DNA of 56,680 nucleotides from Chloroflexota bacterium (GCA_013151955.1 JAADHH010000013.1:1-56680), one strand, 5' to 3'. Positions 97-16,214 are shown, numbered from the stretch's first letter. The notes: a model not told the origin generated them from the sequence alone. Made by a program: numbers and translations.

Positions 97-1458
97 CTAC
101 CGGAGTTGGGGAAGTATGAAGCCATACAAACTGTACACGTCCAGGGCAAACATGCCGATGATCAAGAACGCCACCGCCAGCTTCCACCTGTGGAGGGAAA
201 TCACGTCTTGCAACCCTATGGCCAGGAACAGGCCGATGGGGATTAGTGCCGGAAAAAGGTATCGCCCCTGAAATTGCACAAAGGCCATATTATACCCCAT
301 ATACGCCAGAATCGTCGCGAACAGGGTGAACCCCAGGGTTGCCAATCCCTTTGAGCGGATTGGAGGCTGGCTGGTACGCTGGTTCAACCAAACGTCTTTA
401 TAATAAAGAAAGAAGCCCAGCACAGCCAGCGCAGTAAAGATAAAGAGGACGTCATACGTCCGGGCACTCATCGGCACGCCCATCCAGCCAAATTGCCCCC
501 AGAAACTGTGGAAGGTCGTGACCAGAAAACGTCGCGCGTACCCCGAGGCCCCGTACAAGGTTAACCATTCCGACGTCCGTGGCTGGCCCACCACGACAGC
601 GCTGTGCCGGAGCAATCCAAAAACATCTTTTTGCCCGTAGACCAGCGCGTTCCGCACGAGCCACGGAGACACAATCACCCCCGCGACTCCCCATATCACC
701 AACAGGCCGCCGAACACTGTACCCAAGAACCCCCTACCCGGGCCTTGCTCCGCTCCCTTTTCGTCCCTCCCCAGCCACAAGGCGACCGGCACCGCCAAAA
801 CGGCCACCGCTACCGTGACCTTGGTGAGCAATCCTAATCCCAAGAAGAGACCCGTTGCCAAGCGCGTTCGCAACAAGGTATCTTGCGTTGCCGGGCGAAT
901 CAATAACCACAAAGCCCCGGCAATCAGAAATTCCGCCAGCGTATCATTATTGATTGCCGCAGTCATGGCCACGTGCATAGGAACCGTCGCCACAATTGTC
1001 GCTGCGGCCAGGGCCAGCGCCGGCTTATCGGAAAACAGGGTGATGGCGATGAAGTAGGCGAACACGACAACTCCCGCCCCCAACAACACCGAAAGCAGCC
1101 GCAACACCAGCACCTGCGTCGAGAGAGCCTGCTGCGCTACCACTTTATAGACCAACGCGGCCAGGGCATAATAGAGCGGAGGCTGATGAAACTCGTAACG
1201 AATTGGCGCTATCGACATGCCCGGAGGAAACTTGTTTGCCTTGATCTCTTCGAGGTACCCTGCCGGATAATCACCCGGTTCAAGGACGGGAACCTTGCCG
1301 GTGTTTGCCAAAGACGTAATATAATTGTAATGAGCCGGTTCGTCAGGAGCCTGCCACATAGGCGTCTGCCAGGCATAAAGAGAGGCCACCAACACATACC
1401 CTGCCACAAGGAGAACGAGGGGCCAAGTCCCTCTATCTGTTTGCTCCACGTTCGTCAT
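97..1458 (-). CDS. GT-C fold (ArnT/PMT-like, DUF2142-like) polytopic membrane glycosyltransferase
   Basis: 453 aa with many TM segments; first-loop 'QAPDEPAHYNY' (DE motif), 'HQPPLYY', 'NNDTLA', 'LLTK', 'QGRYLFP'. Confidence 0.8.
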   Translation of the reverse strand: MTNVEQTDRGTWPLVLLVAGYVLVASLYAWQTPMWQAPDEPAHYNYITSLANTGKVPVLEPGDYPAGYLEEIKANKFPPGMSIAPIRYEFHQPPLYYALAALVYKVVAQQALSTQVLVLRLLSVLLGAGVVVFAYFIAITLFSDKPALALAAATIVATVPMHVAMTAAINNDTLAEFLIAGALWLLIRPATQDTLLRTRLATGLFLGLGLLTKVTVAVAVLAVPVALWLGRDEKGAEQGPGRGFLGTVFGGLLVIWGVAGVIVSPWLVRNALVYGQKDVFGLLRHSAVVVGQPRTSEWLTLYGASGYARRFLVTTFHSFWGQFGWMGVPMSARTYDVLFIFTALAVLGFFLYYKDVWLNQRTSQPPIRSKGLATLGFTLFATILAYMGYNMAFVQFQGRYLFPALIPIGLFLAIGLQDVISLHRWKLAVAFLIIGMFALDVYSLYGFILPQLR

Positions 1459-2989: not shown

Positions 2990-3826
2990 CTACAACTTCA
3001 GGCCGCTGATCAATTTTTTCTCGGCATCTCCCTCTATCGTGGCCGACACTTCTACATACGGTTCCAAACCCGACCCGTGCAGTTTCTTCTTGAGCAACTC
3101 ATCCACTTGAAAGATTCCGGCCGAATTCACCATGTGTATATGAATAGAGATCGGTTTTACCGACCCTTTTTCAATCACCACGTCCGCTACCGCCGCCGCC
3201 GACAAAGAATGGATATTCACCGAGCCGGTCTCGAAGGGAATCCGCGAACGTCCCTTGGCCATGTCCAGCGCATCGGCCACGCGAATCACACCGGCCTCCA
3301 CCGTATAAGGGTGCCCCCCACTGCGGTGAGAAATGATGGCATGCAAAATCTCGGCCGTCATCACCGTACGCACCGCCGGATCGTACAACCCTTCCAACAA
3401 ATCCTTCACCTTCGGCTGTGCCACAAAAAGGCTAAACGACTCATGATCCTCACGGTGGATAGACATCCCCACATCGTGCAACAACGAAGCCAAAACCACC
3501 ACAACCTCCGCGTCGTCGTTCGATAGGCCGTAATCGCGCACGATGCCCGGTTCCACACCCCAATCGATCAGAATGCGAATCAAACGAAGGGCAATGTTGG
3601 AGACAACCTGCATGTGTACGGGACCATGATCGCTCATGCCCAAGCGATCCACCGCATTCACATTTTGCGCGCGCCACAAAAAGAAAAGTTCCTCGTCCGC
3701 ATTCACACGCTCGATCACCGCTTGCAGCGTCGGGTTGTGACGGGCCGGAAGACGAATAGCAATTTCCCTTGCAAATCTCTCTGCGCGAAGAGATTCACCC
3801 TTGACCAAACTATCAGATGAATTCAA
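2990..3826 (-). CDS. HD-domain phosphohydrolase
   Basis: 'DHGPVH', 'LLHDVG', 'H..H', 'ADALD' metal ligands; TTG start preceded by an AAGGAGG RBS. Confidence 0.85.
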   Translation of the reverse strand: MNSSDSLVKGESLRAERFAREIAIRLPARHNPTLQAVIERVNADEELFFLWRAQNVNAVDRLGMSDHGPVHMQVVSNIALRLIRILIDWGVEPGIVRDYGLSNDDAEVVVVLASLLHDVGMSIHREDHESFSLFVAQPKVKDLLEGLYDPAVRTVMTAEILHAIISHRSGGHPYTVEAGVIRVADALDMAKGRSRIPFETGSVNIHSLSAAAVADVVIEKGSVKPISIHIHMVNSAGIFQVDELLKKKLHGSGLEPYVEVSATIEGDAEKKLISGLKL

Positions 3827-3885: not shown

Positions 3886-3903
3886 AGTAGAGGGCCACCA
3901 CTT

Positions 3904-3932
3904 TGTAGGGGCAAGGAATCCTCCCCCCTACA
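3904..3932. repeat. GTAG-class REP-like hairpin
   Basis: tgtagggg...cccctaca inverted repeat in the divergent intergenic region. Confidence 0.55.
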
Positions 3933-4053
3933 GTTCCCCACAGTTTTGCGCTATCCCCCCGTCGCACGGGTGTCCGTCATTTTTTTGCGTTGGGGTTTCA
4001 CCGCCCCCTCGACCAACGCAAAACTTTGACGCACACCCCCAGAATGCTTCGTG

Positions 4054-4082
4054 TTGCGCACACGGGCAATGTATTGTATAAT
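4054..4082 (+). promoter_or_regulatory. sigma70 promoter for the cyclase-patatin genes
   Basis: TTGCGC(4054-4059)-17 bp-TATAAT(4077-4082). Confidence 0.6.
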
Positions 4083-4184
4083 CTACGCGTAGAAACTAGC
4101 AAGCCGAGCAAAGGTGTTTGCAGCTACAATCGTGCCCGGACGCTACGGCGTCCAGGCATGAAAACGCATCTGAGAGGAAAGCTC

Positions 4185-7100
4185 ATGTCGCAGCGTTGTC
4201 CGGCCTGCGGTCACGACAACCCGCCTGGCATAATCATCTGCACAACGTGTGCAGCGACGCTAGTCAACGCCTGTCCCCAGTGCGGGTTTGAAAGCCCTGT
4301 CGGCTTCAAATTTTGTGGAAACTGTGGGGAGAGCCTTCTTCCCAAGACGGCCCCCACCACCCCTTCCGAAACCGAAGAAATCTGGAACCGCCTGCGCAGC
4401 TACATCCCCGAACACCTGGCGGAGAAACTGCTCTCCTCCCGCAGCAAGATCGAGGGAGAACGCCGAAACGTTACCGTGCTGTTTGCCGATATCCAGGGTT
4501 TCACCTCCCTGGCCGAAACACTCGACCCCGAACGTGTCTACGACCTTTTGAGCGATTGTATGCGGGGCTTCGCCGACCAGATACACCAACAAGAGGGAAC
4601 CGTAGACAAATTCATCGGCGACGGCATCATGGCCCTGTTCGGCGCGCCCCTCACCCATGAAAACGACCCGGAAAGAGCCGTTCGCTCGGCACTCGGTATG
4701 TTATCTTTCCTGGAAACCTTCAATCAATCCTTGAAAGAGAATTTCGGCATAACCCTCCACGTACGCATCGGCCTGAATGCCGGCATGGTTGTCGCCGGCA
4801 CCGTCGGGTCAGACCTGCGCATGCAATACACCGTCATTGGGGATACCGTCAATCTCGCCTCCCGGCTGGAAGAACTGGCCACCCCAGACACAATCTTGGT
4901 AAGCCAAACAGTGTGGGACGCGACAGCAACCATCTTCGATTATCTACCTCGCGGGCCGGTGAAAGTCAAGGGGCGCAAGGCCCCCGTCGAAATCTACCAG
5001 GTCATCGGCTTGAAAACCCACCCGGGCGCGGCAAGAGGTATTCGCGGCCTGCAAGCGCCCATGATCGGGCGAAACCGCGAACTTGTCCAATTGCACCAGA
5101 CCATTTCTGACCTCGCCGAACGGCACAAAGGGCAAATCGTCCTTTTGACGGGAGAAGCCGGCATCGGCAAATCTCGCCTGGTCTCCGAAAGCAAACATTT
5201 TATGCAGCAATATCGCCTGCGCGTGATTGAAGCAGTTTGCCGCTCTCACACAGCCCATGTCAGCTACTGGCTCTTCCAGCAACTGTTCAACCAGGCCTTC
5301 GGCTTGCGCGAAGGGGACAGCGACGAAACAAAGTCCCAGAAGATACGCCTGGGCACGAAATCCCTGATACCCACAGAATACGAAGACGTGCTCCCGTTCC
5401 TACTCCGCCTGCTGGATGTCACGCCGGCCGACCCCAAGATGGCCGACCGCATCCGCCACCTATCCCCCGAGCAACTTCGCCGGCAGACATTTCTCGCCCT
5501 GCGCCGCCTGGTACTGAGCGCCACCGAAGTGCAGCCCCTCGTCATCCTCATCGATGACCTCCACTGGGTAGACCGCGCATCGTTGGAACTGCTCCTTTTC
5601 TTGATACCCCTCGTGGGACAGTGCGACCTTTACATGGGACTCATCTCTCGACCCTACGAAGGACAGGCGGCCAACTTGATTCACCGTCTGGCATCCGATA
5701 CCTGCCCTGGCTCCTATCTCTCGCTTCCGCTAACCAAACTATCCCGCGCCGATAGCCATACCTTGGTGACTACACTCCTCCGAGAATCGGTTTTGCCGGC
5801 CAGCGTTCAAGAAGGCATCTCCGAAAAAGCGGAGGGCAACCCCTTTTTCCTGGAAGAAGTCATCCGCCTGCTCATCGAGCAGGGAGCAATTTGGCGCGAC
5901 AACGGTATCTGGAATGCCAAGCCAGACCTGGACCTGAAGACCCTGGACATTCCCCAGTCCCTGCACGCCCTGTTGATGAGTCGTGTAGACCGCCTGCCGG
6001 AAGAATTAAAATACGTGCTCCAGTGTAGCTCCGTGATCGGACCCCACGTTCCCTTTCCTCTCCTCCAAGCCGTCGTGGGAAAGGAATACGGCCCGTCACT
6101 AGACACAGGATTGCAAGAGTTGGCATCTCGCGAATTCCTGGACCCGCAACCGCAAGAGAAACATACCTACACATTTCGTCATACACTGGTCCGCGAAACC
6201 GTGTACGGCACACTCCTCACCCCGCGACGCCGCGAACTGCACCAACGCGTAGGCCGCAGCCTGGAAAAACTCCACGCCCACCGGCTGGACGAAGTCATCG
6301 ACCTGCTCGCCTACCATTTCAGCGAGGCAAACGACCCGGCACGCGCGCTCCCATACACCATCCGCTCGGCTGAACGAACCATGAACCGCTTTGCCTACGA
6401 AGATGCCGTGAATCTCTTTGAACGCGCCGAGAAATTTTTCGGAGCCGTCTCCCCCACGTTCGATCAAAAACTGCGCGTCTACCAAGGTTTGGGAGACGCT
6501 AAGACCTTTACCAGCGATTTCGATGCTGCGCTCAAAGCCTTTGAGCGCGCCCTCCTCCTGCTCCGGGAACAAGCCGACCAAGAAGACCAGCGCCGCCTCG
6601 TAGCAGAGCAACTGCGCAAGATCGGCCGCACCTGGGAACGAAAAGCCGATTATGACGAATCCCTTCGGTGGCTTGGGTTGGCCCTGGCCGAATTGGATAT
6701 GGCAGACGACACGATCAAGACGGTGGAAAGAGCGCGTGTATACAACGATATGGGCTGGGTCAACTATCGTCAAGGGCAATCGCGCAAGGCCCTCTCGTGG
6801 GCCGTCCGTGCACTCGAGATTCTGGAGGGCACAGAACACTATCAAGACATCGCCTCCGCATACAACCGCCTGGTCGCCGTGTACTACCAAACAGGCCAGT
6901 GGACAAAAGCGATTGAGTTCGCCGAAAAAGGCTTACAACTCCGCGAACAAATCGGCTATACCTACGGCGTGGCCAATTCATTGGGAAACCTCGCCGCCCT
7001 CCTCACCATCGAAGGGGCCTGGGATCGGGCTTTGGCGTGCGTAGAACGAAGCCTGCACTACAGTGAACAGATGGGAGACATAGAGGGGATAGCCGTGTCC

Positions 7101-7808
7101 TACAACAACCTGGGCCTCATCTATCGCGACCGTGGAGATTTCGAGCGGGCCAACGAAGCCTTGAACAAGAGCCTTGCCGAAGCCGAACGAATTCGCAACC
7201 CTCTGCTCATGGTCTTCGCTTATAACAACCTGGGCCACCTCGCCCTCTCTCGCGGCGACCATCAAACTGCGCAGGGCTATTTGCGGCAAAGCCAATCGCT
7301 GGCCACCGAGATCGGCTCAAAAGAACAGCTATCCGAAGCGCTCTGGCTGATGGCCGAGAGCCTCGTCGAATCGAAAAAATACGAAGAAGCGCGCGCGTTG
7401 GCTTTGGAAGCCATTGACCTGGCAAAACAAGTGCAAAGCACAAACAACCGGGGGGCCGCCTTGCGAACCTTGGGAAAGCTTTGCCTGCAAAGCGGGAACC
7501 TTTCTGATGCAGAGGAGTATCTGGTAGCCGCTCGCACCATCTACCAATCACCACAACACCCTTTCGAACTGGCAAAAACACGCCTCCTTTTGGCAGAACT
7601 CAGACGAGAACAACAACGCTTGCCAGAAGCACACAAACTGCTCGACCAGGCAACCGAAACTTTTCAGAAACTGCAAGCCAATCCAGCCCTGGAAAAGGCC
7701 AACGAACTGCGCAGATCATTTCCGCCGGCCGGCACCCCCAACGGCGAAGATACCTCGCTCTTGGACCGGCAACAGCCAACTTATGTAGGGGAAAAAACCA
7801 ATGTCTAA
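4185..7808 (+). CDS. Double zinc ribbon - class III adenylate cyclase - STAND/AAA ATPase - TPR protein
   Basis: Four CxxC pairs; cyclase motifs 'VLFADIQGFT', 'DKFIGDGIMALFG', 'YTVIGDTVNLASRLE'; Walker A 'GEAGIGKS' and Walker B 'LIDDLHW'; 'GNPFFLEE'; TPR-like 'YNNLG' repeats. Start set at ATG 4185 behind GAGAGGA (the ORF track opens at 3990). Confidence 0.9.
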   Translation: MSQRCPACGHDNPPGIIICTTCAATLVNACPQCGFESPVGFKFCGNCGESLLPKTAPTTPSETEEIWNRLRSYIPEHLAEKLLSSRSKIEGERRNVTVLFADIQGFTSLAETLDPERVYDLLSDCMRGFADQIHQQEGTVDKFIGDGIMALFGAPLTHENDPERAVRSALGMLSFLETFNQSLKENFGITLHVRIGLNAGMVVAGTVGSDLRMQYTVIGDTVNLASRLEELATPDTILVSQTVWDATATIFDYLPRGPVKVKGRKAPVEIYQVIGLKTHPGAARGIRGLQAPMIGRNRELVQLHQTISDLAERHKGQIVLLTGEAGIGKSRLVSESKHFMQQYRLRVIEAVCRSHTAHVSYWLFQQLFNQAFGLREGDSDETKSQKIRLGTKSLIPTEYEDVLPFLLRLLDVTPADPKMADRIRHLSPEQLRRQTFLALRRLVLSATEVQPLVILIDDLHWVDRASLELLLFLIPLVGQCDLYMGLISRPYEGQAANLIHRLASDTCPGSYLSLPLTKLSRADSHTLVTTLLRESVLPASVQEGISEKAEGNPFFLEEVIRLLIEQGAIWRDNGIWNAKPDLDLKTLDIPQSLHALLMSRVDRLPEELKYVLQCSSVIGPHVPFPLLQAVVGKEYGPSLDTGLQELASREFLDPQPQEKHTYTFRHTLVRETVYGTLLTPRRRELHQRVGRSLEKLHAHRLDEVIDLLAYHFSEANDPARALPYTIRSAERTMNRFAYEDAVNLFERAEKFFGAVSPTFDQKLRVYQGLGDAKTFTSDFDAALKAFERALLLLREQADQEDQRRLVAEQLRKIGRTWERKADYDESLRWLGLALAELDMADDTIKTVERARVYNDMGWVNYRQGQSRKALSWAVRALEILEGTEHYQDIASAYNRLVAVYYQTGQWTKAIEFAEKGLQLREQIGYTYGVANSLGNLAALLTIEGAWDRALACVERSLHYSEQMGDIEGIAVSYNNLGLIYRDRGDFERANEALNKSLAEAERIRNPLLMVFAYNNLGHLALSRGDHQTAQGYLRQSQSLATEIGSKEQLSEALWLMAESLVESKKYEEARALALEAIDLAKQVQSTNNRGAALRTLGKLCLQSGNLSDAEEYLVAARTIYQSPQHPFELAKTRLLLAELRREQQRLPEAHKLLDQATETFQKLQANPALEKANELRRSFPPAGTPNGEDTSLLDRQQPTYVGEKTNV

Positions 7809-9468
7809 AGAAGCCACATCCATGGAACAGCACCTTCGACGTATCTCTTTCTTTAGCAACTTGCCTGACGAAACACTCCGTGCCATCCACAGCCACATGC
7901 AAATACAACGATACCCAAAAGGGAAAAAGGTGGTGGTCGAAGGCGATCTGGCCGATTCAATGTACCTGATTGAATCGGGACAGGTACAGGTCGTCTCCGG
8001 CTCCGGGGCCGATCAACGCATCCTGGCCTATCTGGGACCCGGAAGTTTCTTTGGCGAAATGGCCCTCCTTCTCAGTGAGCGGCGGTCGGCAACCGTAGAA
8101 GTCGTCATTGACACAGAACTCTGGGTATTGCTGAAAACCGACCTGGACAAACTCCTCCAGGAACACCCCTCCCTTGGCCTGACCATCAGCCGTGAACTAA
8201 GTCGTCGACTCCAGCAAACCATTCAACACCCCACACAACGGAAAGAAATCCGGATTATTGCCGTTAGCGGCGCTTTCAGCAGCGAGCTGGCCAGATCCCT
8301 GGCCATACAGACCGCAGAAAGCGTCCTGTGGTTCCCGACCAGCGATTCCGCTCCCAACCTACACCCCGATACCCCAGGCGTTATCCCTTTCAAGCCGCCG
8401 GCGGACTTGACCGTCGAAGGACTCCCCGAAATCCTCAGTCAGGTTTTGCAAGATTACAGTCGAGTCTGCCTGGCCATAGATACCGAAGATAGCCCTCTCG
8501 CCCGCAAGGCCGTAGAGCTGGCGGAAGAAGTAATCCAGGTCGGCGATGTACAGATTCCCTGGGCATACGACATGGCCCTGGACCGCTACAGAGTCACCAC
8601 CCTCGATCCGGTCAGGCTGGGACGCATGGCCCGCAACATTGCCGGAAGGCAAATTGGGTTGGCCCTCTCCAGCGGAAACGCCCGCGGAATCGCCCACATC
8701 GGCATTCTGAAGGTATTCGAAGAAGAGGGCATCCCCATCGATGTCCTGGCCGGAACAAGCGCCGGCTCATTATTCGGAGCGCTCTACGCCGCCGGCATGA
8801 GCACGGACGAAATCGCCGACTTCGCCCGCAACCTGCCCCGAATTACGAGCTTCCGCTTTGGCCTCTGGGACATCAGCATCCCCCCACGATCCAGCCTCAT
8901 TCAGGGAAAGAAGACTCTGAATTACATCCGCGAGCTGCTCGGCAACAAAACCTTCGAGGAATTGACGATTCCTTTCTACGTCGTCTCCGCCGACTATCAT
9001 TGCGGCGAGGAAATCGTCTTCCACGACGGACCGGTGGCCGATGCCGTACGCGCCAGCATCTCCATCATCGGCCTATTCAAACCGATGCACCTGCAGGGCC
9101 GTTACTTTATCGACGGCGGCACCGTAAACCCGGTGCCCACCAGCGTACTTTATGACCACGGCGTGGAAACGATCATCGCCTCCAGCGTAATTCCGAACCT
9201 GGAAGAACGCCTGGAAAGACAAGACCTCCGCCGCCAAGGAAAACTCCCCAACATCGTGGGCATTTTGATGGGTGCCATGGAAATCATGGAGAGCGAAATC
9301 ATTCAATCCCGCATGGGACCAGTAGACGTCTTGATCAAACCAGAAGTGGCCGACCTGCACACCATGCAATACGAAAAAGCCGACGAGTTCATCCGCCGGG
9401 GAGAGGAAGCTGCCCGCAAACACATTGACGCGATAAAGACCTTGATCGCACCGAAGCCGCGAACGTAG
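7801..9468 (+). CDS. Cyclic-nucleotide-binding domain plus patatin-like phospholipase (NTE/RssA-like)
   Basis: CNBD 'FFGEMALL..RRSATV'; patatin 'SSGNARGIAHIG', catalytic 'GTSAG' and 'DGG'; overlaps the cyclase stop by 8 nt. Confidence 0.9.
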   Translation: MSKEATSMEQHLRRISFFSNLPDETLRAIHSHMQIQRYPKGKKVVVEGDLADSMYLIESGQVQVVSGSGADQRILAYLGPGSFFGEMALLLSERRSATVEVVIDTELWVLLKTDLDKLLQEHPSLGLTISRELSRRLQQTIQHPTQRKEIRIIAVSGAFSSELARSLAIQTAESVLWFPTSDSAPNLHPDTPGVIPFKPPADLTVEGLPEILSQVLQDYSRVCLAIDTEDSPLARKAVELAEEVIQVGDVQIPWAYDMALDRYRVTTLDPVRLGRMARNIAGRQIGLALSSGNARGIAHIGILKVFEEEGIPIDVLAGTSAGSLFGALYAAGMSTDEIADFARNLPRITSFRFGLWDISIPPRSSLIQGKKTLNYIRELLGNKTFEELTIPFYVVSADYHCGEEIVFHDGPVADAVRASISIIGLFKPMHLQGRYFIDGGTVNPVPTSVLYDHGVETIIASSVIPNLEERLERQDLRRQGKLPNIVGILMGAMEIMESEIIQSRMGPVDVLIKPEVADLHTMQYEKADEFIRRGEEAARKHIDAIKTLIAPKPRT

Positions 9469-9490
9469 TCGGGGGGCGGGGAGCAACTCT

Positions 9491-9670
9491 GAAACGATGA
9501 ATGCAGAATGATGAACGGCGTGAAACGTAATGAGCGGTTGCACGCCACCACGGATGAAAATGGCGGGACGTGAAACGTAAAACGTGATGCGTGATGCGTA
9601 AGACGCAATACGTTTCACGTCTTCACGTTTTACGTTTTACGTGACACCTGACACGTTATTTTCAAAACAG
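9491..9670. repeat. Composite intergenic repeat, family A copy 1 (heptamer core between fixed flanks)
   Basis: Flanks 'atgagcgg..ggatgaaaatggcgggac' and 'gtgacacctgacacgttattttcaaaacag' recur at 30401-30550 (reverse) and 46483-46603. Confidence 0.9.
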
Positions 9671-9680
9671 AGGAGACCAC

Positions 9681-10355
9681 ATGTCCACCATTCTTATCGC
9701 CGATGACGAAGATAACATCTTTCAATTGGCAAAGCTATACCTGGGCAAAGAAGGCTTTCACGTTCTCCATGCCGCCGACGGAAAGAAAGCGCTGCAGCGC
9801 GTAGCCAATGACCGGCCCGACCTCTTGATCCTGGACATCATGTTGCCGGAAATGGACGGCTGGGACGTGTGCCGGCAACTGCGACAAGAAAACAACGACA
9901 TCCCGATCATCATGCTGACCGCCAGAGACGACGACATAGACAAAATCGTCGGTCTCGAACTGGGCGCAGACGACTACGTCACCAAACCCTTCAATCCGCG
10001 CGAGTTGGTCGCCCGCGTCAAAGCCCTCCTGCGCCGTGTGGACACCGGCCCCAAAGTCCCCCCCGCCGTCGACCTGGGCGAGTTACACCTGGACTCAGCA
10101 CGACGAGAGGTACGCATTGACGATCAGCCGGTAGCCCTGCGGCCCAAAGAGTTCGACCTCCTTTGGGCTTTCGTCCAAAACCGGGGACTCGTACTCAGCC
10201 GGGACCAACTGCTCGATTCGGTGTGGGGATACGATTTCTACGGCGACACGCGCACCGTAGACGTCCACGTCGCCAGCCTTCGAGAGAAGCTAACCCATAG
10301 CGGGGTCATCATCGAAACCGTTTGGGGCATTGGCTACAAGCTGTCTGCGGATTAA
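9681..10355 (+). CDS. OmpR/PhoB family response regulator
   Basis: 'ILIADDE', 'ILDIMLP', 'KPFNPREL', winged helix 'RTVDVHV..LREKL', 'VWGIGYK'; GAGGAG RBS. Confidence 0.95.
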   Translation: MSTILIADDEDNIFQLAKLYLGKEGFHVLHAADGKKALQRVANDRPDLLILDIMLPEMDGWDVCRQLRQENNDIPIIMLTARDDDIDKIVGLELGADDYVTKPFNPRELVARVKALLRRVDTGPKVPPAVDLGELHLDSARREVRIDDQPVALRPKEFDLLWAFVQNRGLVLSRDQLLDSVWGYDFYGDTRTVDVHVASLREKLTHSGVIIETVWGIGYKLSAD

Positions 10356-10361
10356 CCTGTC

Positions 10362-11786
10362 GTGTTCCGAACCCTGCGCCACAAACTGATCGTATCCTAC
10401 GTGTTGATCGCGCTGCTTTCCCTGCTCCTTTCCGGGAGTGCCGCAGCGTGGCTCCTACAAAATAGCCAGGAAGAATCGGCTGTGCGCAGTTTGCGCATCC
10501 TGGCCCTTTCTGTTTCCGTACGCCTGCCCCGGCTCCCCCAGCGACAGGTAACCCTCACCTTCCTCCTGCCACGCCTGCGCCAGGAGGCAGCAGACGCCGG
10601 CGTACGGCTTGTCGTGCTCACCGCTAACGGGCAAGTGCTCGCCGACACCGATACATCTTCCAATTTGCAGGGCGAACAAATTCCCTTTGCTTTGCGCACA
10701 GACCTGCGTCGCCCCGACGTGAGACGGCGACAGGTGAAGGGGCAAGACCTATTTTTCGTTGTCCTCCCCCTCGGTGCCCGCGCCCGGCCGGCACCGCCCG
10801 ATCAACCCAGTTTCGTCGCCCTCGTTGTGCCCGCCGCAGACATTGTGGATACCTGGCTGGAACTGGCCCCCTCTCTGTTGCTCGCTTTGGCCCTGGCGCT
10901 GGTCGTGTGCATTGCCGTAGGAGGAATCTTGTCGCGGGCCATCACACGACCGCTGGAAGAAATGACCCACGCCTCGCAGGCCATCGCCGCCGGTGATTAC
11001 GAACAGAAAATCGCCACTTCCGGCAATGACGAGGTGGGCCGGCTTGCCGAGGCCTTCAACCACATGGCCCTTGAAGTACACCGGGCCAGGAAAACCCAAC
11101 GCGATTTCCTGGCCAATGTCTCCCACGACCTGAAAACACCCTTGACCTCCATCCAGGGGTTCTCCCAAGCCCTGCTCGACGGCTCTGCCGATTCCCCCGA
11201 AGACCGCCAAAGAGCAGCGCGCATCATCCACCAAGAATCGGAACGCATGAACCGGCTCGTCGGTGAATTACTCGAACTTTCCCGGCTTGAATCGGGCCAG
11301 ATTCCTTTTCGGCAAGACCATGTCGATGTCGGAAATCGCCTACAACATTGCGCCGAAAAATTCCGCCCGCAAGCGGAACAAGGCCATGTCGATTTGCAAA
11401 TCGACCTACAGGCCTCGGAGCTGGCGATCACCGGAGACGCAGACCGCCTTGATCAGGTGCTGACCAATCTCGTGGATAACGCCCTCCGCTATACCCCCGC
11501 CGGTGGCCAAGTGCTTTTGCGGGGAAACAGGGAACGGACTGCACAAAATGAAACCTGGGTCGTCATTCGCGTGAGCGACACCGGCAAAGGAATCTCACCG
11601 GATGACCTCCCCCACGTCTTCGAGAGATTCTACCGCGTGGATCGCGCACGCACAAAAGAGGGAGGTACCGGCCTCGGTCTGGCCATCGCCCGCGAAATCG
11701 TGCAGACGATGGGCGGCTACATCGCCGCCCAAAGCCAGTTGCACCAGGGCACGACCTTCACCGTCCGCCTGCCGGCGGCGGAGTGA
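10362..11786 (+). CDS. HAMP-domain sensor histidine kinase
   Basis: Two TMs, HAMP, H-box 'SHDLKTPL', N-box 'NLVDNALRY', G-boxes 'DTGKG' and 'GTGLGL'. Confidence 0.95.
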   Translation: MFRTLRHKLIVSYVLIALLSLLLSGSAAAWLLQNSQEESAVRSLRILALSVSVRLPRLPQRQVTLTFLLPRLRQEAADAGVRLVVLTANGQVLADTDTSSNLQGEQIPFALRTDLRRPDVRRRQVKGQDLFFVVLPLGARARPAPPDQPSFVALVVPAADIVDTWLELAPSLLLALALALVVCIAVGGILSRAITRPLEEMTHASQAIAAGDYEQKIATSGNDEVGRLAEAFNHMALEVHRARKTQRDFLANVSHDLKTPLTSIQGFSQALLDGSADSPEDRQRAARIIHQESERMNRLVGELLELSRLESGQIPFRQDHVDVGNRLQHCAEKFRPQAEQGHVDLQIDLQASELAITGDADRLDQVLTNLVDNALRYTPAGGQVLLRGNRERTAQNETWVVIRVSDTGKGISPDDLPHVFERFYRVDRARTKEGGTGLGLAIAREIVQTMGGYIAAQSQLHQGTTFTVRLPAAE

Positions 11787-11789
11787 TTC

Positions 11790-11895
11790 GAAATGATGAA
11801 TGCGGAATGATGAACGGCGTAAAACGTGGATACAATCGAACGTGCTCACGCAATACGCAACACGGTTTTCACACAACACGTTTTACGCATTACGC
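11790..11895. repeat. Heptamer-type intergenic repeat (partial family A relative)
   Basis: 11790-11827 matches 9491-9528 with 3 mismatches in 38 bp, followed by cacgcaa/tacgcaa/cacg units. Confidence 0.7.
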
Positions 11896-11917
11896 CCTAC
11901 ACACCCTCTGGCGACTG

Positions 11918-13240
11918 ATGACTGACCACTGGCTACTGCTCACCCCCCTCTGCTTCCTGTTGGCCCTCCTCATCGCCGGCTGTACGGCTGCGTCGCCGGC
12001 TGCGCAACCAAGCCCGGCCATCACGCGCACGCCGCGACCGACCTTCACACCCCGTGCAACACCGACATCCACACGCCTACCCACGATGATCGCGACCCCT
12101 TCGCCCACGCCGGCAAACACCCCCCTGGCCATCGGCGAACCGGAGGGCGAGACGGCGCGCGTCCGCATTTTCCAGGAAGAGGTGGCCGCCCGGCGCACCG
12201 CGACCGCACAGGCCCGCAACGCCGCCACTGCGACTCCCCCTGCCTCGCAAATCACCGGCGCGGACAACGGATTGAAGGCATCGTCCGTGCCACACGAACA
12301 GGGACAACGGCTGGTGCTGGGCAACTATTTCGTCTGGTACGACGCGGCAGGGTGGGACGGCTGCAACATCAGCGACGGCGACCGGCCGCAGATACCCTAC
12401 AACTCGGACGACCCCGAAGCGATGCGTCGCCACGTCGGGCAAGCGCGTGATGCCGGCCTGGACGGATTCACCGCCCAGTGGTTTGCACCAGGGGAGCGCA
12501 CCGACCAAAATTTTGCCCGGCTGCTCGATGTCTCGCGTGGACAGGACTTCCATTCGACGGTCGTCTTCCTGCGTCACATCTGGCCCGGCGCCCCCCGCCC
12601 GACGACCGCAAACGTGGCCGATGCGCTGCGCTACATTTTGGATCGCTACGGCGGCCACGACAGCTTCTTGCGCTGGAAGGGGAAGCCGGTCATCTTCTTC
12701 GCCGACATCTATCGCGTGCCCCACGCCGGCGGACAAACAGCACAACAGGCCTGGCAAGCTATCCGCCAGCAAGCAGACCCCCAACATCAAAGCTGGTGGA
12801 TTGCCGAAGGGTTGGACCCCTCCTATCTGGCCGTTTTCGACGGGCTGTACGTCTACAAAGTCACGCACGCCGCATACCCCGACGACTACCGCAAAGATTC
12901 GCGCTGGGCACAGAACGTGCGCCGCTGGGAACAGCGCACCGGCCAGACCAAACTCTGGATCGCCACGCTCATGCCCGGCTGGGACGACCGGCGCGCCGGA
13001 TGCCGGCCCAATGTGCGCGTCCCCTCGCAGCCACACAAACGCGACCGGGAAAACGGGGCCTTCTACCGGGCCACGTTCGACGCCGCCCTGCAAAGCAACC
13101 CCGATTGGCTGTGGATCAACAGTTTCAACGAATGGGTCGAGGGGACGTACATCGAGCCGAGCGCACACTACGGAGACCGGTACTTGCAAGAAACAAAGCA
13201 GCTCGTTCTAAGCTGGAAGAAAGAAGATCACGGGCGATGA
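11918..13240 (+). CDS. Lipoprotein with PT-rich linker and a GH99/GH71-like glycoside hydrolase domain
   Basis: Lipobox 'LIAGC'; 'YFVWYD', 'ARDAGLDGF', 'GKPVIFF', 'MPGWDD', 'INSFNEWVEGTYIEPS' (ExxE pair as in GH99). The ORF-track start 11783 lies in repeat DNA, so ATG 11918 was preferred. Confidence 0.75.
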   Translation: MTDHWLLLTPLCFLLALLIAGCTAASPAAQPSPAITRTPRPTFTPRATPTSTRLPTMIATPSPTPANTPLAIGEPEGETARVRIFQEEVAARRTATAQARNAATATPPASQITGADNGLKASSVPHEQGQRLVLGNYFVWYDAAGWDGCNISDGDRPQIPYNSDDPEAMRRHVGQARDAGLDGFTAQWFAPGERTDQNFARLLDVSRGQDFHSTVVFLRHIWPGAPRPTTANVADALRYILDRYGGHDSFLRWKGKPVIFFADIYRVPHAGGQTAQQAWQAIRQQADPQHQSWWIAEGLDPSYLAVFDGLYVYKVTHAAYPDDYRKDSRWAQNVRRWEQRTGQTKLWIATLMPGWDDRRAGCRPNVRVPSQPHKRDRENGAFYRATFDAALQSNPDWLWINSFNEWVEGTYIEPSAHYGDRYLQETKQLVLSWKKEDHGR

Positions 13241-13269
13241 TCAAATATCAAAGACCAGTGTCCAGTATC

Positions 13270-14559
13270 TTACCTGCGCCAGAAGGCCCACCTTCTCCTC
13301 ACCGGTCGTGACCTTCCCAATTCCTGCGCCACAGCATCTAAAATGGCCCACTGTGCTGCCACATTTTCAGGAGCCGGAACCCCCTCTTCGAGCGGCAACG
13401 CCGGATAGGAAACGAACTTCATAACGTGCAAGGCGTTCGGGCTGACCCTTTGCACAAAGCGGGCCGTCTCCCGAACCGAATCCTCGGTTTGCCCGGGCAA
13501 ACCGACCATGACAAAGAGGCGCACGGTCAAACCGATACGCTGCGCCTCGTGGATCACCCTGCCCGCGTGCTCCAAATAACCCGATACGGCCGTCTCAGAG
13601 GGCACACGTTTTAGCGCCACGAGCAACGCCGGGGCCACCGTCTCCAGCCCCAGCTTGATCACACGGCAACCGGCACGCTTCATGGTCTGCAACAGGGGCG
13701 CATCGAAGTGTTCCGGACGGGATTCGCATTCCCACGGCACAGCAAAGCGGCGATCACGCAAAGCATGGCACAACGCGACGACCCGATCACGCTCGCGGGC
13801 GAAGACCGGATCGCGGAAGATCAGGCGGGGGGGGCGAAACCGCTCCGCCAGCCAAACCATCTCGTCTGCCACGCGGCGCGGGTCACGAACGCGGTAGTGA
13901 CGGCCCTGCGCGACCACGTAGGGACAATACACACAGGCCTCCTCGCACCCCCGGCTGGCTTGCAGCGTGTAGAAGGGGTACGCGGGGAGCAAATCCCAGG
14001 CCGGCCGTGGTAGAGAATCGAGAGACTCGAGCCGTCCCTCCTCATCGTAGCCGGAAGCGCCCAGGTCGGCGGGCCAAAGCGGGCCGCACAAACTCTGGGG
14101 CGCATCGAAAAGGGCCTCCACCAAGCGAGGGAAAGCCAGTTCCGGTTCTCCCAGGAGGATGGCACGAGTCGCCCCCGTCGCCTCGATGTCCTGCACCATG
14201 AACCGCGTCGCCGGCCCGAAGGCGACCAGGGGGGTAGCGGGCAACCGCTCGTGCAACCGTTGCAGACAGGCACGATCGGCCGGCCACGTGGCCGGGGAGA
14301 CAAAGACGCCGACCTGTGCCGGATGGTGTGCGTCCACGCGGGCAACCGCTTCGGGCAGGGCCATCCCTCCGGCGACGGCATCCACGATGACGACCGTATG
14401 TCCGGCATCGCGCACAGCGGCCGCCGTGACCGCCAGAGTCTGCGGCGGATAGAAGAAGCCGCTCGGCTCCCTCCGTACAGCGCCCATGCCGGCCGCTCCC
14501 TCGCGGTTGGCGGTCGTGCCCGGCGTTCCGGGAGGATTCAGCAACAGGAGGGGGTGCAC
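13270..14559 (-). CDS. Cobalamin-binding radical SAM protein
   Basis: 'SRGCEEACVYC' (CxxxCxxC); N-terminal 'LLLNPP'/'GEPE' B12-binding-like region; GTG start behind GGAGG, just after the upstream stop at 14562. Confidence 0.85.
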   Translation of the reverse strand: MHPLLLLNPPGTPGTTANREGAAGMGAVRREPSGFFYPPQTLAVTAAAVRDAGHTVVIVDAVAGGMALPEAVARVDAHHPAQVGVFVSPATWPADRACLQRLHERLPATPLVAFGPATRFMVQDIEATGATRAILLGEPELAFPRLVEALFDAPQSLCGPLWPADLGASGYDEEGRLESLDSLPRPAWDLLPAYPFYTLQASRGCEEACVYCPYVVAQGRHYRVRDPRRVADEMVWLAERFRPPRLIFRDPVFARERDRVVALCHALRDRRFAVPWECESRPEHFDAPLLQTMKRAGCRVIKLGLETVAPALLVALKRVPSETAVSGYLEHAGRVIHEAQRIGLTVRLFVMVGLPGQTEDSVRETARFVQRVSPNALHVMKFVSYPALPLEEGVPAPENVAAQWAILDAVAQELGRSRPVRRRWAFWRR

Positions 14560-14561
14560 CT

Positions 14562-16214
14562 TTACCCTCCGTCCGCCGGTGGCAACAAGCGAAACACCAG
14601 GGTGCGGCCCTTGTTGCCCGCCTGATCGTAGACCGCCTCCAACCCGGCCGGCGGATGCGCCGTATCGAGCAGAAAACGGAGGTGTGGTCGCAACACGGTC
14701 AGCTCTCGCGTATCGGTTACCAGATAATCTGCGCCCTGCCGCCGGGCATACGCCAAATAGCGGTCGAATTCGGCGTGGGGCGAAGGCACCCAGCGACGAT
14801 CGGCATACAAGGCCACGGCAATGTCGCGCGTCAGGATGACCGCGTCGGCGGGCGTATTTTGGCGCAGCCACAAGCCGGCCGTCTTGTGCCCAAAGTCGCT
14901 GCTCTGCACACCCTGTTGGAACGTGGCCGGCATGGAGAGAAGGAAATAGGCCAACACCAACACCCCCGGCAGGAAAAAGATCATCCGCTTTCTGCGCGCG
15001 CCACCGACCCAAACCGGCCAGAGGTTACCCAAAGTCGCCACCAACCAATCGCCAAGGGCCACAAGACCGCGGGCCGACCAGATAAGCAGCACGACGAAAA
15101 CCGGGGCGAAGAAGCGCAGCTCGATGTGAAAGGGTAAGAACGTAAACAGCGGCAACAGACCGATGGCCAATAAGGCCTCTCCGCGCAGCCGGCGGCGAGA
15201 CCAGCGATCGGTGAACCAGGCCAGGGCAAGGAATGGCAACAGCAGCAAAGGAAAGGCTGTGCGCCCGATCAAGTCTCCGCGAAGGGTGCGAGCATTGCGA
15301 ACCATCCGCCGCAACAAGCCCTCTGGGTTTGCGGCAACAAGTTGAAACATGTTGCGGTCGAAGCGGTGCGGCGAGAACCAGATAATCTCTTTGCCTTCGG
15401 AGTCGAGGCCGGCGGTAACACGGTCGTACTCGGCAGGGTCGCGGTCTTGCACGGCCCGGCCAATGTCCCAGGTCACGGCCAGCTTGCCGCTGAGGGACCA
15501 GTGGCCGGTCTGGGTGTGGAGGTAAACAACGTAGGGAGCAGAGACGAGCAGAAACGCTGCGATAAAAAGCCCGCCTCCCCCGGCCGCCAGGCGAGGGTTT
15601 TGCGGCCTGTGAAAATGTGCAGACAGAAGCCACCAGAGCAATCCGGCCACAAAAAAGCTCACCGCCTCCGGCCGGGTCAGGTAAGCCAGGCCGAAGGCCA
15701 CGCCGGCCATGCCCATTGCCGGCCACGACTGCCGTTCGTGCGCGGCCAGCAGCAAAGCCAGCCCACCAAAAACGAGAAACAGGTAGAGCGGTTCCGTCAT
15801 CGTACCCCAGTAAAGGACGCTGATCGTGAGGGGCGGGAAGATCGCCAGCAGGGCAAGGGCTGTCCATGCCGTACGCCGGCCATACACCCGTCGGGATAGA
15901 AACCAGACGGGCAGCAGCAAGAGCGCGCCAAAGAGGGCGTATGCCACATCGCTGGCGCGCTCCAGGTCGTGGACGATCAGGTTGAAAAAGCCTGTAACCA
16001 GCGGATAGAGGGGCGTATAATGCACCTCCGGCACCCATCCCGAGGTGAAACCCTGACCGGCCCAGAGGTGCTGGCCCAGCAGCAAGTAGTCCGGCTCGTC
16101 CCATTTGACGACCCGTGGCAGGACAACTGTAAGGAGCAATCGCAGGGCGAACAGCGCGAGTACCCCTCCCAGCAGCCACCTTCTCTCACTTGAGTTCCTC
16201 AGACGAGTCGTCAT
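14562..16214 (-). CDS. GT-C (ArnT/PMT-like, GT39/83) membrane glycosyltransferase
   Basis: 'WDEPDY', 'TPLYP', 'TEPLY', 'YLTRPEA'; multi-TM. Confidence 0.8.
   Translation of the reverse strand: MTTRLRNSSERRWLLGGVLALFALRLLLTVVLPRVVKWDEPDYLLLGQHLWAGQGFTSGWVPEVHYTPLYPLVTGFFNLIVHDLERASDVAYALFGALLLLPVWFLSRRVYGRRTAWTALALLAIFPPLTISVLYWGTMTEPLYLFLVFGGLALLLAAHERQSWPAMGMAGVAFGLAYLTRPEAVSFFVAGLLWWLLSAHFHRPQNPRLAAGGGGLFIAAFLLVSAPYVVYLHTQTGHWSLSGKLAVTWDIGRAVQDRDPAEYDRVTAGLDSEGKEIIWFSPHRFDRNMFQLVAANPEGLLRRMVRNARTLRGDLIGRTAFPLLLLPFLALAWFTDRWSRRRLRGEALLAIGLLPLFTFLPFHIELRFFAPVFVVLLIWSARGLVALGDWLVATLGNLWPVWVGGARRKRMIFFLPGVLVLAYFLLSMPATFQQGVQSSDFGHKTAGLWLRQNTPADAVILTRDIAVALYADRRWVPSPHAEFDRYLAYARRQGADYLVTDTRELTVLRPHLRFLLDTAHPPAGLEAVYDQAGNKGRTLVFRLLPPADGG

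What the first reader, a model, noticed from the sequence alone, without database searches (positions are those of the whole stretch)
4185..9468. NLR-like adenylate cyclase coupled to a cNMP-gated patatin phospholipase: candidate sensor, second messenger and membrane-effector system
Seen: two genes overlapping by 8 nt behind one promoter. Gene 1 has zinc ribbons, a class III cyclase with intact metal Asps and the K/T/N/R pattern of adenine-specific class IIIb enzymes, a STAND ATPase and a long TPR array. Gene 2 has an intact CNBD phosphate-binding cassette (GE..L....RSA) and an intact patatin dyad (GTSAG, DGG). Established: Avs defence uses STAND-TPR sensors, Pycsar uses a class III cyclase with a CNBD-fused effector, and CBASS uses the patatin CapV. 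Inference: this pair joins all three logics, so ligand sensing by the TPR would trigger cAMP and then phospholipase activation, for defence or envelope remodelling. Caveats: each architecture is common on its own, and the neighbourhood is not a defence island.
Basis: partly seen in the sequence, partly recalled or inferred. Interest (0 to 1): 0.85.

Follow-up and report, generated by a model that had tools for sequence, protein, structure and literature searches.

The report
cAMP cyclase, lipase and kinase cluster
An uncultured Chloroflexota bacterium keeps a sensor-type cAMP-making enzyme next to a cAMP-binding membrane-lipid-cutting enzyme and a histidine kinase, which looks like an undescribed lipid-control signalling module and not a phage-defence system.

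Summary
Gene 1 (4185-7808) is a double zinc ribbon, class III cyclase, AAA_16 STAND ATPase and TPR protein. Gene 2 (7801-9468) is a CNBD, a degenerate P-loop-like domain and a patatin lipase.

The adjacency is conserved but not universal: 11 of 31 loci (window included) that hold a full-length CNBD-patatin have the orthologous cyclase directly upstream.

It lies directly downstream in 25 of 31 loci.

The defence reading is not supported:
- There is no recurrent defence neighbour among 134 flanking ORFs.
- The locus is stable within genera.
- All four cyclases in this genome are STAND-type.
- cAMP is shared with at least five other CNBD proteins, one a CRP-type regulator.
- The lipase is RssA/PlpD-like, not CapV-like.

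Best reading: a lineage-specific cAMP module that controls an NTE/RssA-type lipase, tied to envelope or lipid signalling. I found no paper describing it. Interest is moderate.

The parts
4054..4082 (+). Candidate promoter: TTGCGC (4054-4059), 17-nt spacer, TATAAT (4077-4082), about 100 nt before the gene 1 start
   Evidence: Read directly from the sequence. Not reported by the consensus scan, which needs 4 of 6 matches in each hexamer. Weak.
4185..7808 (+). Gene 1, 1207 aa: double zinc ribbon + class III (K/T, adenine-type) cyclase + AAA_16 STAND ATPase + TPR array
   Evidence: ORF. Pfam. Residue conservation. CyaB (3r5g) 9e-34.
4197..4328 (+). Two CxxC...CxxC zinc ribbons (residues 5-48)
   Evidence: PF12773 DZR 9e-10. 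Eight Cys conserved in 12 orthologues: 7 invariant, C5 at 90% or more.
4464..5003 (+). Cyclase catalytic domain (residues 94-273): D102, D146, K142, T216, N223, R227
   Evidence: PF00211 7e-33. Same place found. Residues.
5064..5618 (+). STAND P-loop module (AAA_16, residues 294-478): Walker A GEAGIGKS, Walker B ILIDD
   Evidence: PF13191 2e-21. Walker A invariant, Walker B D458 at 90% or more.
6462..7694 (+). TPR array (about residues 760-1170), MalT-like
   Evidence: TPR_12 3e-43. TPR_MalT 67 bits against a cut-off of 45.
7801..9468 (+). Gene 2, 555 aa: CNBD + degenerate P-loop-like alpha/beta domain + patatin lipase. No predicted membrane helix.
   Evidence: AlphaFold2 model with mean pLDDT 77.6. 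Hydropathy scan.
7906..8166 (+). Cyclic nucleotide-binding domain (residues 36-122) with an intact phosphate-binding cassette, G85-E86 ... R95-S96-A97-T98
   Evidence: PF00027 2.6e-22. Same place found. G85, E86, R95, A97 and T98 invariant and S96 at 90% or more in 17 sequences.
8248..8646 (+). Middle alpha/beta domain (about residues 150-282), well folded, without a Walker A motif
   Evidence: pLDDT about 82-93 with a beta-alpha-beta pattern. Atlas lead to NTE_Ploop clusters, score 0.82. Weak CBP_BcsQ matches in 8 of 17 relatives, best E 0.011.
8659..9150 (+). Patatin catalytic domain (residues 287-450; the fold runs on to about 540): oxyanion G292..R295, Ser320 in GTSAG, Asp438 in DGG
   Evidence: PF01734 2.6e-32. 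PlpD 5fqu 1.2e-35. Foldseek TM 0.84 to PlpD. Invariant residues.
9567..9647 (.). Long imperfect palindrome of ACGT-rich short repeats in the 212-nt spacer between gene 2 and the response regulator. A second copy lies at about 30400-30520.
   Evidence: Inverted repeats of 20-25 nt. RNA fold -79.3 kcal/mol, z = -5.2. Five pattern matches against 0.01 expected. Second copy read.
9681..10355 (+). OmpR-family response regulator, the conserved downstream partner
   Evidence: Response_reg 6.5e-34 and Trans_reg_C 7e-28. Orthologue directly after the patatin in 8 of 20 loci from relatives, with a 4-nt overlap in four of them.
10362..11786 (+). Membrane sensor histidine kinase: two hydrophobic segments (9-27, 172-190), HAMP, HisKA, HATPase_c
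   Evidence: Pfam. Hydropathy. Orthologues follow the patatin in relatives.

Best explanation
This is a chromosomal, lineage-specific cAMP signalling module of Anaerolineae/Ardenticatenales. It is not an immune system.

Gene 1 is a cytoplasmic STAND-type adenylate cyclase. A ligand or partner bound by the TPR array (and perhaps the zinc ribbons) would drive nucleotide-dependent oligomerisation of the AAA_16 module. That would bring the cyclase domains together into the dimer that class III cyclases need, and cAMP would be made.

Gene 2 is a soluble NTE/RssA/PlpD-type patatin (lyso)phospholipase. Its N-terminal CNBD would hold it inactive until cAMP binds. Its activity would remodel or turn over membrane lipids.

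The histidine kinase that almost always follows the lipase gene links the same locus to envelope or lipid-state signalling. It is an OmpR regulator plus a HAMP membrane kinase in this clade, and a soluble GAF kinase in others.

Shown here: the domain make-up, the intact and conserved catalytic and binding residues, the conserved gene order, and the genomic context.

Inferred: cAMP as the product, activation and not inhibition by cAMP, the lipid substrate, and the role of the kinase.
For: 1. All functional residues are intact and invariant across orthologues. The cyclase is closest to the cAMP-forming CyaB, which has the same K/T pair.
2. Gene order cyclase then CNBD-patatin: same strand in all, overlapping (4-8 nt) or abutting in 4 of the 7 related-genome loci and spaced 25-102 nt in the other 3. 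It occurs in 11 of 31 loci (window included), down to 34-46% (gene 1) and 45-52% (gene 2) identity. The linked state is clustered on the tree.
3. 0 of 16 cyclase-less relatives have a full-length CNBD-patatin, against 20 of 45 with a cyclase.
4. A histidine kinase lies directly downstream in 25 of 31 loci. Two unrelated kinase types occupy the same position.
5. The context is housekeeping and stable. All sampled genomes of genera g1-g4 hold it. Maf and HD recur upstream and RR, HK, GH99 and B12-rSAM downstream within the genus. GC content is unremarkable.
6. All four cyclase genes in this 3.0-Mb genome are cyclase + AAA_16 +/- TPR, so this is the lineage's ordinary cyclase type.
7. Related STAND cyclases sit near other CNBD or GAF outputs: CNBD-HD_5 two genes downstream, CNBD-kinase after a TPR gene, GAF-kinase directly downstream.
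8. The lipase matches RssA (149 bits) and PlpD, not CapV.
Against: - Nothing was measured: no product, lipase activity, binding or expression.
- Adjacency is absent in 19 of 31 loci and unknown in 1. Genomes G041 and G055 hold both genes unlinked, so the coupling is facultative.
- With four cyclases and six CNBD proteins in one genome, pairing by adjacency need not mean private signalling.
- The RssA model is matched below its cut-off (149 against 272 bits).
- The family is patchy. A full-length match occurred in 2 of 201 genomes drawn evenly from the phylum and in 20 of 61 near relatives. Patchiness is also what mobile or accessory systems show.
- A cyclase next to a CNBD-fused effector is formally the Pycsar layout. 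Swapping of effector domains among related cyclases is also a hallmark of defence systems.
- The PADLOC scan was at the level of single HMMs, on crude ORF calls. It was not a system-level call.
Confidence: 0.6

Rival explanations
1. Anti-phage abortive-infection system. The STAND-TPR module recognises a phage protein, the cyclase makes a cyclic nucleotide, and the CNBD-patatin destroys the membrane.
For: - The layout (class III cyclase next to a CNBD-fused effector) is that of Pycsar. The cyclase domain matches PADLOC PycC models (best 9.8e-29), and the CNBD part of gene 2 matches PycTIR and effector models (1e-17).
- Patatin effectors of CBASS (CapE) are structural neighbours, with TM about 0.6.
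- Related STAND cyclases carry different CNBD outputs.
- The distribution is patchy at class and phylum level.
Against: - The PADLOC matches cover only the generic cyclase and CNBD domains. Avs1b scores E 0.008, and CBASS_lipase scores 20 bits against a cut-off of 200.
- Among 134 flanking ORFs from 20 loci no defence family recurs in more than 4, and the recurrent ones (mad2/3/8) are few; the commonest Pfam domains of those ORFs are histidine-kinase ones.
- The locus is fixed within genera, with the same housekeeping neighbours.
- The TPR part is no more diverged than the rest: 94% in the genus and 66% in the family, against 93% and 66% for the NTPase part.
- The K/T residues predict cAMP, which the cell also uses through a CRP-type regulator. 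That would cross-trigger a suicide effector.
- All cyclases of the genome are STAND-type.
Confidence: 0.12
2. The functional unit is the CNBD-patatin plus the histidine kinase or two-component system. The lipase reads the cell-wide cAMP pool, and the kinase senses or controls the resulting lipid or envelope state. The cyclase is a frequent neighbour but not a dedicated partner.
For: - A kinase is downstream in 25 of 31 loci, against a cyclase upstream in 11 of 31.
- The patatin and the regulator overlap by 4 nt in L033, L036, L037 and L042.
- Nine genomes hold the patatin without a close gene-1 orthologue: G004-G007, G010, G013, G034, G038, G047.
- The genome has three other cyclases.
Against: - Where it occurs, the cyclase-patatin junction is often tight: an 8-nt overlap here and in L031, 4-nt overlaps in L039 and L040.
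- The linked state is old and clustered on the tree.
- In this genus the kinase operon is separated from gene 2 by 212 nt that hold a repeat element.
Confidence: 0.18
3. The CNBD is a structural or regulatory relic that no longer responds to cyclic nucleotides, as has long been debated for eukaryotic NTE. The gene order reflects inherited synteny only.
For: - The function of the NTE/PNPLA6 cyclic nucleotide-binding sites is described as still unknown in the abstract of PMC12710771.
- Much of the adjacency lies within one class, whose members are kin.
Against: - The phosphate-binding cassette residues G85, E86, R95, A97 and T98 are invariant in 17 sequences at 41-69% identity.
- No cyclase-less genome holds the fused protein: 0 of 16.
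- Flanking genes other than the cyclase and the kinase are not conserved beyond the genus.
Confidence: 0.07

Closest known systems
Eukaryotic neuropathy target esterase (PNPLA6/NTE, Drosophila Swiss-cheese) and bacterial RssA/YchK-type patatins
   Same: - CNBD(s) N-terminal to a patatin Ser-Asp lipase in one polypeptide.
- Public sources name relatives 'NTE family protein' or 'RssA/CRP-like'.
- The best NCBIfam match is RssA, 1.3e-43.
- The middle domain has its nearest Atlas clusters in NTE_Ploop families, which is a lead only.
   Different: - One CNBD, not three, and no membrane anchor.
- The RssA score is below that model's cut-off (149 against 272 bits).
- It sits beside a dedicated cyclase and a histidine kinase, which NTE does not have.
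- No NTE structure was available for comparison.
Pycsar (pyrimidine cyclase anti-phage system) and its cGMP offshoot 'Pucsar'
   Same: A class III-type cyclase gene lies next to an effector with an N-terminal CNBD. There are domain-level HMM matches.
   Different: - The cyclase carries STAND + TPR + zinc ribbons and the adenine-type K/T pair.
- The effector is a patatin. It is not one of the TIR or transmembrane types named in the Pucsar abstract (listing) and, from recall, for Pycsar.
- No defence-island context.
- No phage phenotype is known.
CBASS phospholipase effectors CapV/CapE
   Same: Patatin fold activated by a nucleotide second messenger. Foldseek finds CapE at TM about 0.6.
   Different: - No CD-NTase gene adjacent.
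- The ligand domain is a CNBD.
- NF041079 CBASS_lipase scores 20 bits against a cut-off of 200.
- PlpD is much closer, at TM 0.84 and 1e-35.
Multidomain mycobacterial/actinobacterial cyclases of the cyclase + ATPase + TPR/HTH type (for example Rv0386)
   Same: Class III cyclase followed by an AAA_16-type STAND ATPase and helical repeats. The nearest NCBIfam model over residues 88-751 is the TOMM kinase/cyclase fusion, 1.4e-79.
   Different: - N-terminal double zinc ribbon and no HTH.
- Below the cut-off of that model (268 against 706 bits).
- The Rv0386 comparison is from recall plus the listing of PMC2447327. It was not aligned here.
Avs / bacterial NLR-like STAND defence proteins
   Same: STAND NTPase with a C-terminal TPR sensor and an N-terminal output domain.
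   Different: - The output is a cyclase, not a nuclease or protease.
- The only Avs model matched is Avs1b, at E 0.008.
- Context and inheritance are those of a core gene.

Membership tests
Class III adenylate cyclase, adenine-specific K/T (IIIb-like) type | Two metal-binding Asp, a substrate-defining Lys and Thr/Asp, and a transition-state Asn and Arg | tested here: met
   D102, D146, T216, N223 and R227 are invariant and K142 is present in 11 of 12 orthologues. The same K and T align with CyaB 3r5g. PF00211 scores 114 bits against a cut-off of 21.9.
Class III adenylate cyclase, adenine-specific K/T (IIIb-like) type | The product is 3',5'-cAMP | not testable with these tools
   Needs an enzyme assay with LC-MS.
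STAND NTPase (AAA_16 / MalT-like) | P-loop with Walker A and B, followed by a helical arm and a repeat sensor | tested here: met
   AAA_16 77 bits against 32.6. TPR_MalT 67 bits against 45. Walker A invariant, Walker B D458 at 90% or more.
Patatin-like phospholipase (Ser-Asp dyad) | Oxyanion G-x-x-R-G loop, G-x-S-x-G nucleophile, D-G-G/A Asp | tested here: met
   G292/R295, S320 and D438-G439 invariant in 17 sequences. PF01734 scores 113 bits against 27.7. PlpD TM 0.84.
RssA (NF007623 equivalog) | Score at or above the curated cut-off over the whole model | tested here: not met
   149.3 bits against a cut-off of 272. It is a relative, not an equivalog.
Cyclic nucleotide-binding domain | Beta-roll with phosphate-binding cassette G-E ... 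R-[ST]-A | tested here: met
   PF00027 scores 79 bits against 27.5. G85, E86, R95, A97 and T98 invariant, S96 at 90% or more. Which nucleotide binds was not testable.
Pycsar | The cyclase makes cCMP or cUMP | not testable with these tools
   The K/T pair shared with CyaB argues for ATP, but product identity needs an assay.
Pycsar | Cyclase adjacent to a CNBD-fused effector | tested here: met
   8-nt overlap here. Same order in 11 of 31 loci.
Pycsar | Defence-island or mobile context and phage protection | tested here: not met
   Context test: no recurrent defence family among 134 neighbours, and housekeeping neighbours. Phage protection was not testable.
CBASS (CapV effector) | CD-NTase partner and a CapV-type lipase | tested here: not met
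   NF041079 scores 20.3 bits against 200. No nucleotidyltransferase among the neighbours scanned. The whole genome was not searched for a CD-NTase.
Avs | Match to an Avs family model | tested here: not met
   Only Avs1b matched, at E 0.008 and 11.5 bits.

The most novel reading that the evidence does not exclude
A vertically fixed, NLR-like immune or self-lysis module. The STAND-TPR cyclase detects an invader or damage signal and raises cAMP locally. The CNBD-patatin then attacks the membrane. The adjacent kinase reports or limits the damage. This would be a chromosomal fusion of Avs-type sensing, Pycsar-type signalling and CBASS-type killing. In these filamentous bacteria it might instead sacrifice single cells of a filament.
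Probability: 0.1. Interest if true: 0.85.

Novelty: new variant of a known kind. Interest (0 to 1): 0.5.

Why it matters
- CNBD-patatin proteins are annotated by the hundred in Chloroflexota MAGs. I found no paper that characterises one or notes its conserved cyclase and kinase partners (searches; full text of open-access papers and bioRxiv only).
- If the model holds, it adds a lipase to the short list of bacterial cAMP outputs.
- It would show STAND cyclases acting as ordinary signal sensors in a whole lineage.
- It offers a simple soluble bacterial model for an open question in the NTE/PNPLA6 field: whether and how cyclic nucleotides control the patatin domain. The abstract of PMC12710771 states that the function of those sites is still unknown.
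- It is also a caution. An NLR-like sensor, a cyclic nucleotide and a patatin together are not enough to call a defence system.

Tried and rejected
- Expression: no RNA holder was listed for window 3900-11800. The three DNA holders had shares of only 0.05-0.11.
- Promoter and terminator scan: no + strand promoter-like site upstream of gene 1, and terminator-like sites were not above shuffles (10 found, 8.5 expected).
- Pfam NTE_Ploop for the middle domain was not matched by any of 17 relatives at E up to 1. Only weak CBP_BcsQ matches appeared. The Atlas score of 0.82 is below the level that tool calls reliable.
- The genome-contig scan with alignment A1 returned mostly CNBD-only matches from other phyla. 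Only 16 of 79 loci (L051-L066) were examined. The two full-length matches outside Chloroflexota (L063 Bacillota, L066 Auribacterota) showed no cyclase or kinase by tblastn within 8 kb.
- The NAR 2026 domain-centric defence paper (PMC13069673) was checked by term search only. Its patatin mention concerns CBASS-DAC, not a CNBD-patatin. Supplementary tables of papers were not available, so candidate-operon lists there could hold this architecture unseen.
- Complex prediction, the search of protein representatives and the second structure job were not used, because no binding claim is made.
- Copies not fetched or counted: G002:C3 and G013:C451 (the gene lies at a contig start), G047:C454, G004:C7, G005:C31, and the distant 28-29% matches in G018 and G035.
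- L043, L051, L055, L061 and L062 were left out of the tree as near-duplicates, truncated or broken copies.

Full report
**1. What is there**

The window holds two + strand ORFs that overlap by 8 nt, 7801-7808. With the ATG at 4185, preceded by a purine-rich stretch, gene 1 encodes 1207 aa. Gene 2 encodes 555 aa.

Pfam on gene 1:
- double zinc ribbon, residues 5-48, 9e-10
- class III cyclase domain, 94-273, 7e-33
- AAA_16, 294-478, 2e-21
- a long TPR array (TPR_12 3e-43; TPR_MalT 67 bits against a cut-off of 45)

Pfam on gene 2: cNMP_binding 36-122 (2.6e-22) and Patatin 287-450 (2.6e-32).

Neither protein has a convincing membrane helix in a hydropathy scan. Gene 1 gives one weak segment inside the NTPase.

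**2.

In 12 gene-1 orthologues (34-93% identity):
- D102 and D146 (metal), T216, N223 and R227 are invariant, and K142 is present in 11 of 12.
- Walker A (G323..G328-K329) is invariant and Walker B D458 is at 90% or more.
- All eight Cys of the two zinc ribbons are conserved (7 invariant, C5 at 90% or more).

The nearest solved structure is the P. aeruginosa adenylate cyclase CyaB (3r5g, 9e-34). Its printed alignment shows the same Lys and Thr.

In 17 CNBD-patatins (41-69% identity to the query):
- The phosphate-binding cassette residues G85, E86, R95, A97 and T98 are invariant, and S96 is at 90% or more.
- The oxyanion loop (G292, R295), the nucleophile S320 in G-T-S-A-G and D438-G439 are invariant.

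The patatin part is closest to PlpD: 5fqu at 1.2e-35, and Foldseek TM 0.84 on an AlphaFold2 model of mean pLDDT 77.6. The CBASS lipase CapE is a more distant structural neighbour (TM about 0.6).

Residues about 150-282 form a confidently modelled alpha/beta domain without a Walker A motif. It gives only leads: Atlas NTE_Ploop clusters at 0.82 and weak CBP_BcsQ matches in 8 of 17 relatives.

**3. Organism and genome**

- The closest public record for gene 2 (92% identity) is titled an uncultured Ardenticatenales bacterium. Other relatives are named Anaerolineae, Ardenticatenia, Caldilineaceae or Chloroflexota.
- The window lies in a 3.02-Mb, 166-contig assembly, 86% complete.
- That genome has four cyclase genes, and all four are cyclase + AAA_16 with or without TPR.
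- It has ten CNBDs in six proteins:
  - the patatin
  - a CRP-type regulator
  - a four-CNBD protein
  - a two-CNBD/bPH_2 protein
  - a RACo-like protein
  - a NACHT-TPR-CNBD protein

**4. Is the adjacency conserved?**

Gene 2 was searched in 61 genomes: the window's own and 60 relatives of the same class. Twenty, the own one included, hold a full-length homologue at E of 1e-129 or lower.

I fetched 20 loci from 17 of these genomes and laid the four modules of gene 1 on them by tblastn.
- A complete zinc-ribbon/cyclase/STAND/TPR gene lies directly upstream on the same strand in 7 of 20: L031, L032, L034, L039, L040, L045, L047. These come from four families in the tool's numbering.
- Twelve of the 20 have another upstream gene, and one (L046) ends too early to tell.
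- The junction is an 8-nt or 4-nt overlap in L031, L039 and L040, and the genes abut in L034.

Ten further distinct loci came from the genome-contig scan. Three of them (L052, L054, L060) have the same gene upstream. With the window, that makes 11 of 31.

On a maximum-likelihood tree of 30 ingroup copies, the cyclase-linked state needs 4-5 changes, against about 9-10 for shuffled labels (0 of 500 shuffles as low). It occurs on several deep branches. That fits an old linkage with losses, though kin share labels.

Co-occurrence:
- 0 of the 16 relatives without any class III cyclase domain hold the fused CNBD-patatin, against 20 of 45 with one.
- These genomes are kin, so no test statistic is given.
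- The unpublished genome G011 is one of the 45.

The link is facultative. G041 and G055 hold a close gene-1 orthologue and the patatin on different contigs. G057, G050 and G024 hold the cyclase orthologue without a full-length patatin.

**5.

Directly downstream of the patatin lies a histidine kinase in 17 of the 20 loci from relatives. It also follows the patatin in 7 of the 10 extra loci (one more ends at the contig edge) and in the window, which makes 25 of 31.

There are two forms:
- In the Ardenticatenales clade it is an OmpR-type regulator plus a two-helix HAMP/HisKA kinase, like window 9681-11786. In L033, L036, L037 and L042 the regulator overlaps the patatin gene by 4 nt.
- Elsewhere it is a soluble GAF-HisKA_3-HATPase kinase of about 425 aa.

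The three loci without a kinase are second copies within a genome.

Among 134 flanking ORFs, the commonest Pfam families are HATPase_c (16), HisKA (11), HAMP (9), GAF (8), HisKA_3 (7) and Response_reg (6).

In this genus the regulator is separated from gene 2 by 212 nt. That spacer holds a strongly folding ACGT-rich palindromic repeat (z = -5.2), which has a second copy near 30400-30520. In the sister family genome (L032) the gap is 1 nt.

**6. Defence or signalling?**

For defence:
- The layout is formally Pycsar-like.
- The generic domains match PADLOC PycC and effector models.
- Related STAND cyclases sit near different CNBD or GAF outputs: CNBD-HD_5 two genes downstream in L140, CNBD-kinase after a TPR gene in L143, GAF-kinase directly downstream in L141.
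- The family is patchy: 2 of 201 genomes in an even draw from the phylum.

Against defence:
- The ten nearest ORFs in the window are housekeeping or envelope genes.
- Of 134 neighbours in 20 loci, no PADLOC family is matched by more than 4. The recurrent ones are mad2/3/8 (3-4 members each). The rest are single hits, among them one set of SNF2-helicase models and one type IV restriction enzyme model. This is an HMM-level scan of crude ORF calls, not a system call.
- All sampled genomes of genera g1-g4 hold the gene. Within the window's genus, Maf and HD recur upstream and RR, HK, GH99 and B12-rSAM recur downstream.
- The TPR part is no more diverged than the NTPase part.
- Avs1b is matched only at E 0.008, and the CBASS lipase model at 20 bits against a cut-off of 200.
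- STAND cyclases are this genome's only cyclase type, and cAMP is also read by a CRP-type regulator. A lethal cAMP-triggered effector would therefore be exposed to cross-talk.

I put the defence reading at about 0.12.

**7. Most likely mechanism (confidence 0.6)**

- A ligand or partner binds the TPR arm.
- The AAA_16 module then oligomerises, which is established behaviour of STAND NTPases.
- The cyclase domains are brought into the dimer that class III cyclases need, also established knowledge.
- cAMP is made.
- cAMP binds the CNBD and releases or repositions the patatin domain, which changes membrane lipid turnover.
- The adjacent kinase ties the locus to envelope or lipid-state signalling.

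Only the anatomy, conservation and context are shown here. Product, direction of regulation, substrate and kinase role are inferred.

**8. Comparison with known systems, and novelty**

- Nearest in architecture for gene 2 is the NTE/PNPLA6/Swiss-cheese family, with CNBDs ahead of a patatin. The abstract of PMC12710771 describes the role of its cyclic nucleotide-binding sites as still unknown.
- Nearest for gene 1 are the actinobacterial cyclase-ATPase multidomain proteins. That comparison rests on recall and the listing of PMC2447327; nothing was aligned.
- Six full-text searches found no paper on a bacterial CNBD-patatin with a cyclase or kinase partner. Subscription journals and supplementary tables were not searchable.
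- I rate it a new variant of a known kind, of moderate interest (0.5).

Noticed in passing
window 9567-9647 and about 30400-30520: An ACGT-rich palindromic repeat element occurs at two intergenic sites of the window. It contains units like ACGTGAAACGTAAAACGT, with 20-25-nt inverted arms and an RNA fold z of -5.2. At the first site it fills the spacer between gene 2 and the response regulator, which are 1 nt apart in a sister-family genome (L032). It is possibly a REP/MITE-like element or a regulator-binding array.
   Followed up: partly
L148:1-3360 (G000 contig C66, about 18500-21860): The same genome encodes a NACHT + TPR + CNBD protein of at least 1119 aa, running off the fetched stretch. 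This is a STAND protein that would read a cyclic nucleotide, not make one.
   Followed up: no
L149, L150, L151 (G000 contigs C153, C135, C28): All three other cyclase genes of the genome are also cyclase + AAA_16 STAND proteins. One is a 55%-identical paralogue of gene 1 with zinc ribbons but no TPR (758 aa). One carries two cyclase domains.
   Followed up: partly
L140:5264-6322, L143:4221-5621, L141:828-3485: Relatives of gene 1 in other Anaerolineae sit near other receiver proteins: a CNBD-HD_5 phosphohydrolase two genes downstream, a CNBD-histidine kinase after a separate TPR gene, and a PAS/3xGAF kinase directly downstream. This suggests local cyclase-receiver cassettes in this class.
   Followed up: partly
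L042:8005-11538 and L043:7984-11650: In two genomes of one genus (a record of the same contig is titled Ardenticatena sp.), the CNBD-patatin is tandemly duplicated ahead of the regulator and kinase, with no cyclase nearby. A third copy lies elsewhere (G004:C7).
   Followed up: partly
window 2990-3826 (- strand): An HD-domain protein (278 aa, PF01966 7e-7) is transcribed divergently from gene 1. HD-superfamily enzymes include nucleotide phosphodiesterases. It is conserved at this position only within the genus (L031).
   Followed up: no
L062:4908-5425: In one MAG the patatin part of the homologue matches only in two pieces (query residues 3-82 and 215-273 of the patatin segment). It is possibly a deleted or broken copy, still followed by the GAF kinase.
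   Followed up: no
window 97-1458, 11783-16214: Envelope-glycosylation-type genes flank the locus: two PMT_2 glycosyltransferases, a GH99/WbsX-like protein and a B12-binding radical SAM enzyme. GH99 and the radical SAM gene keep their position in the same-genus record L051.
   Followed up: no
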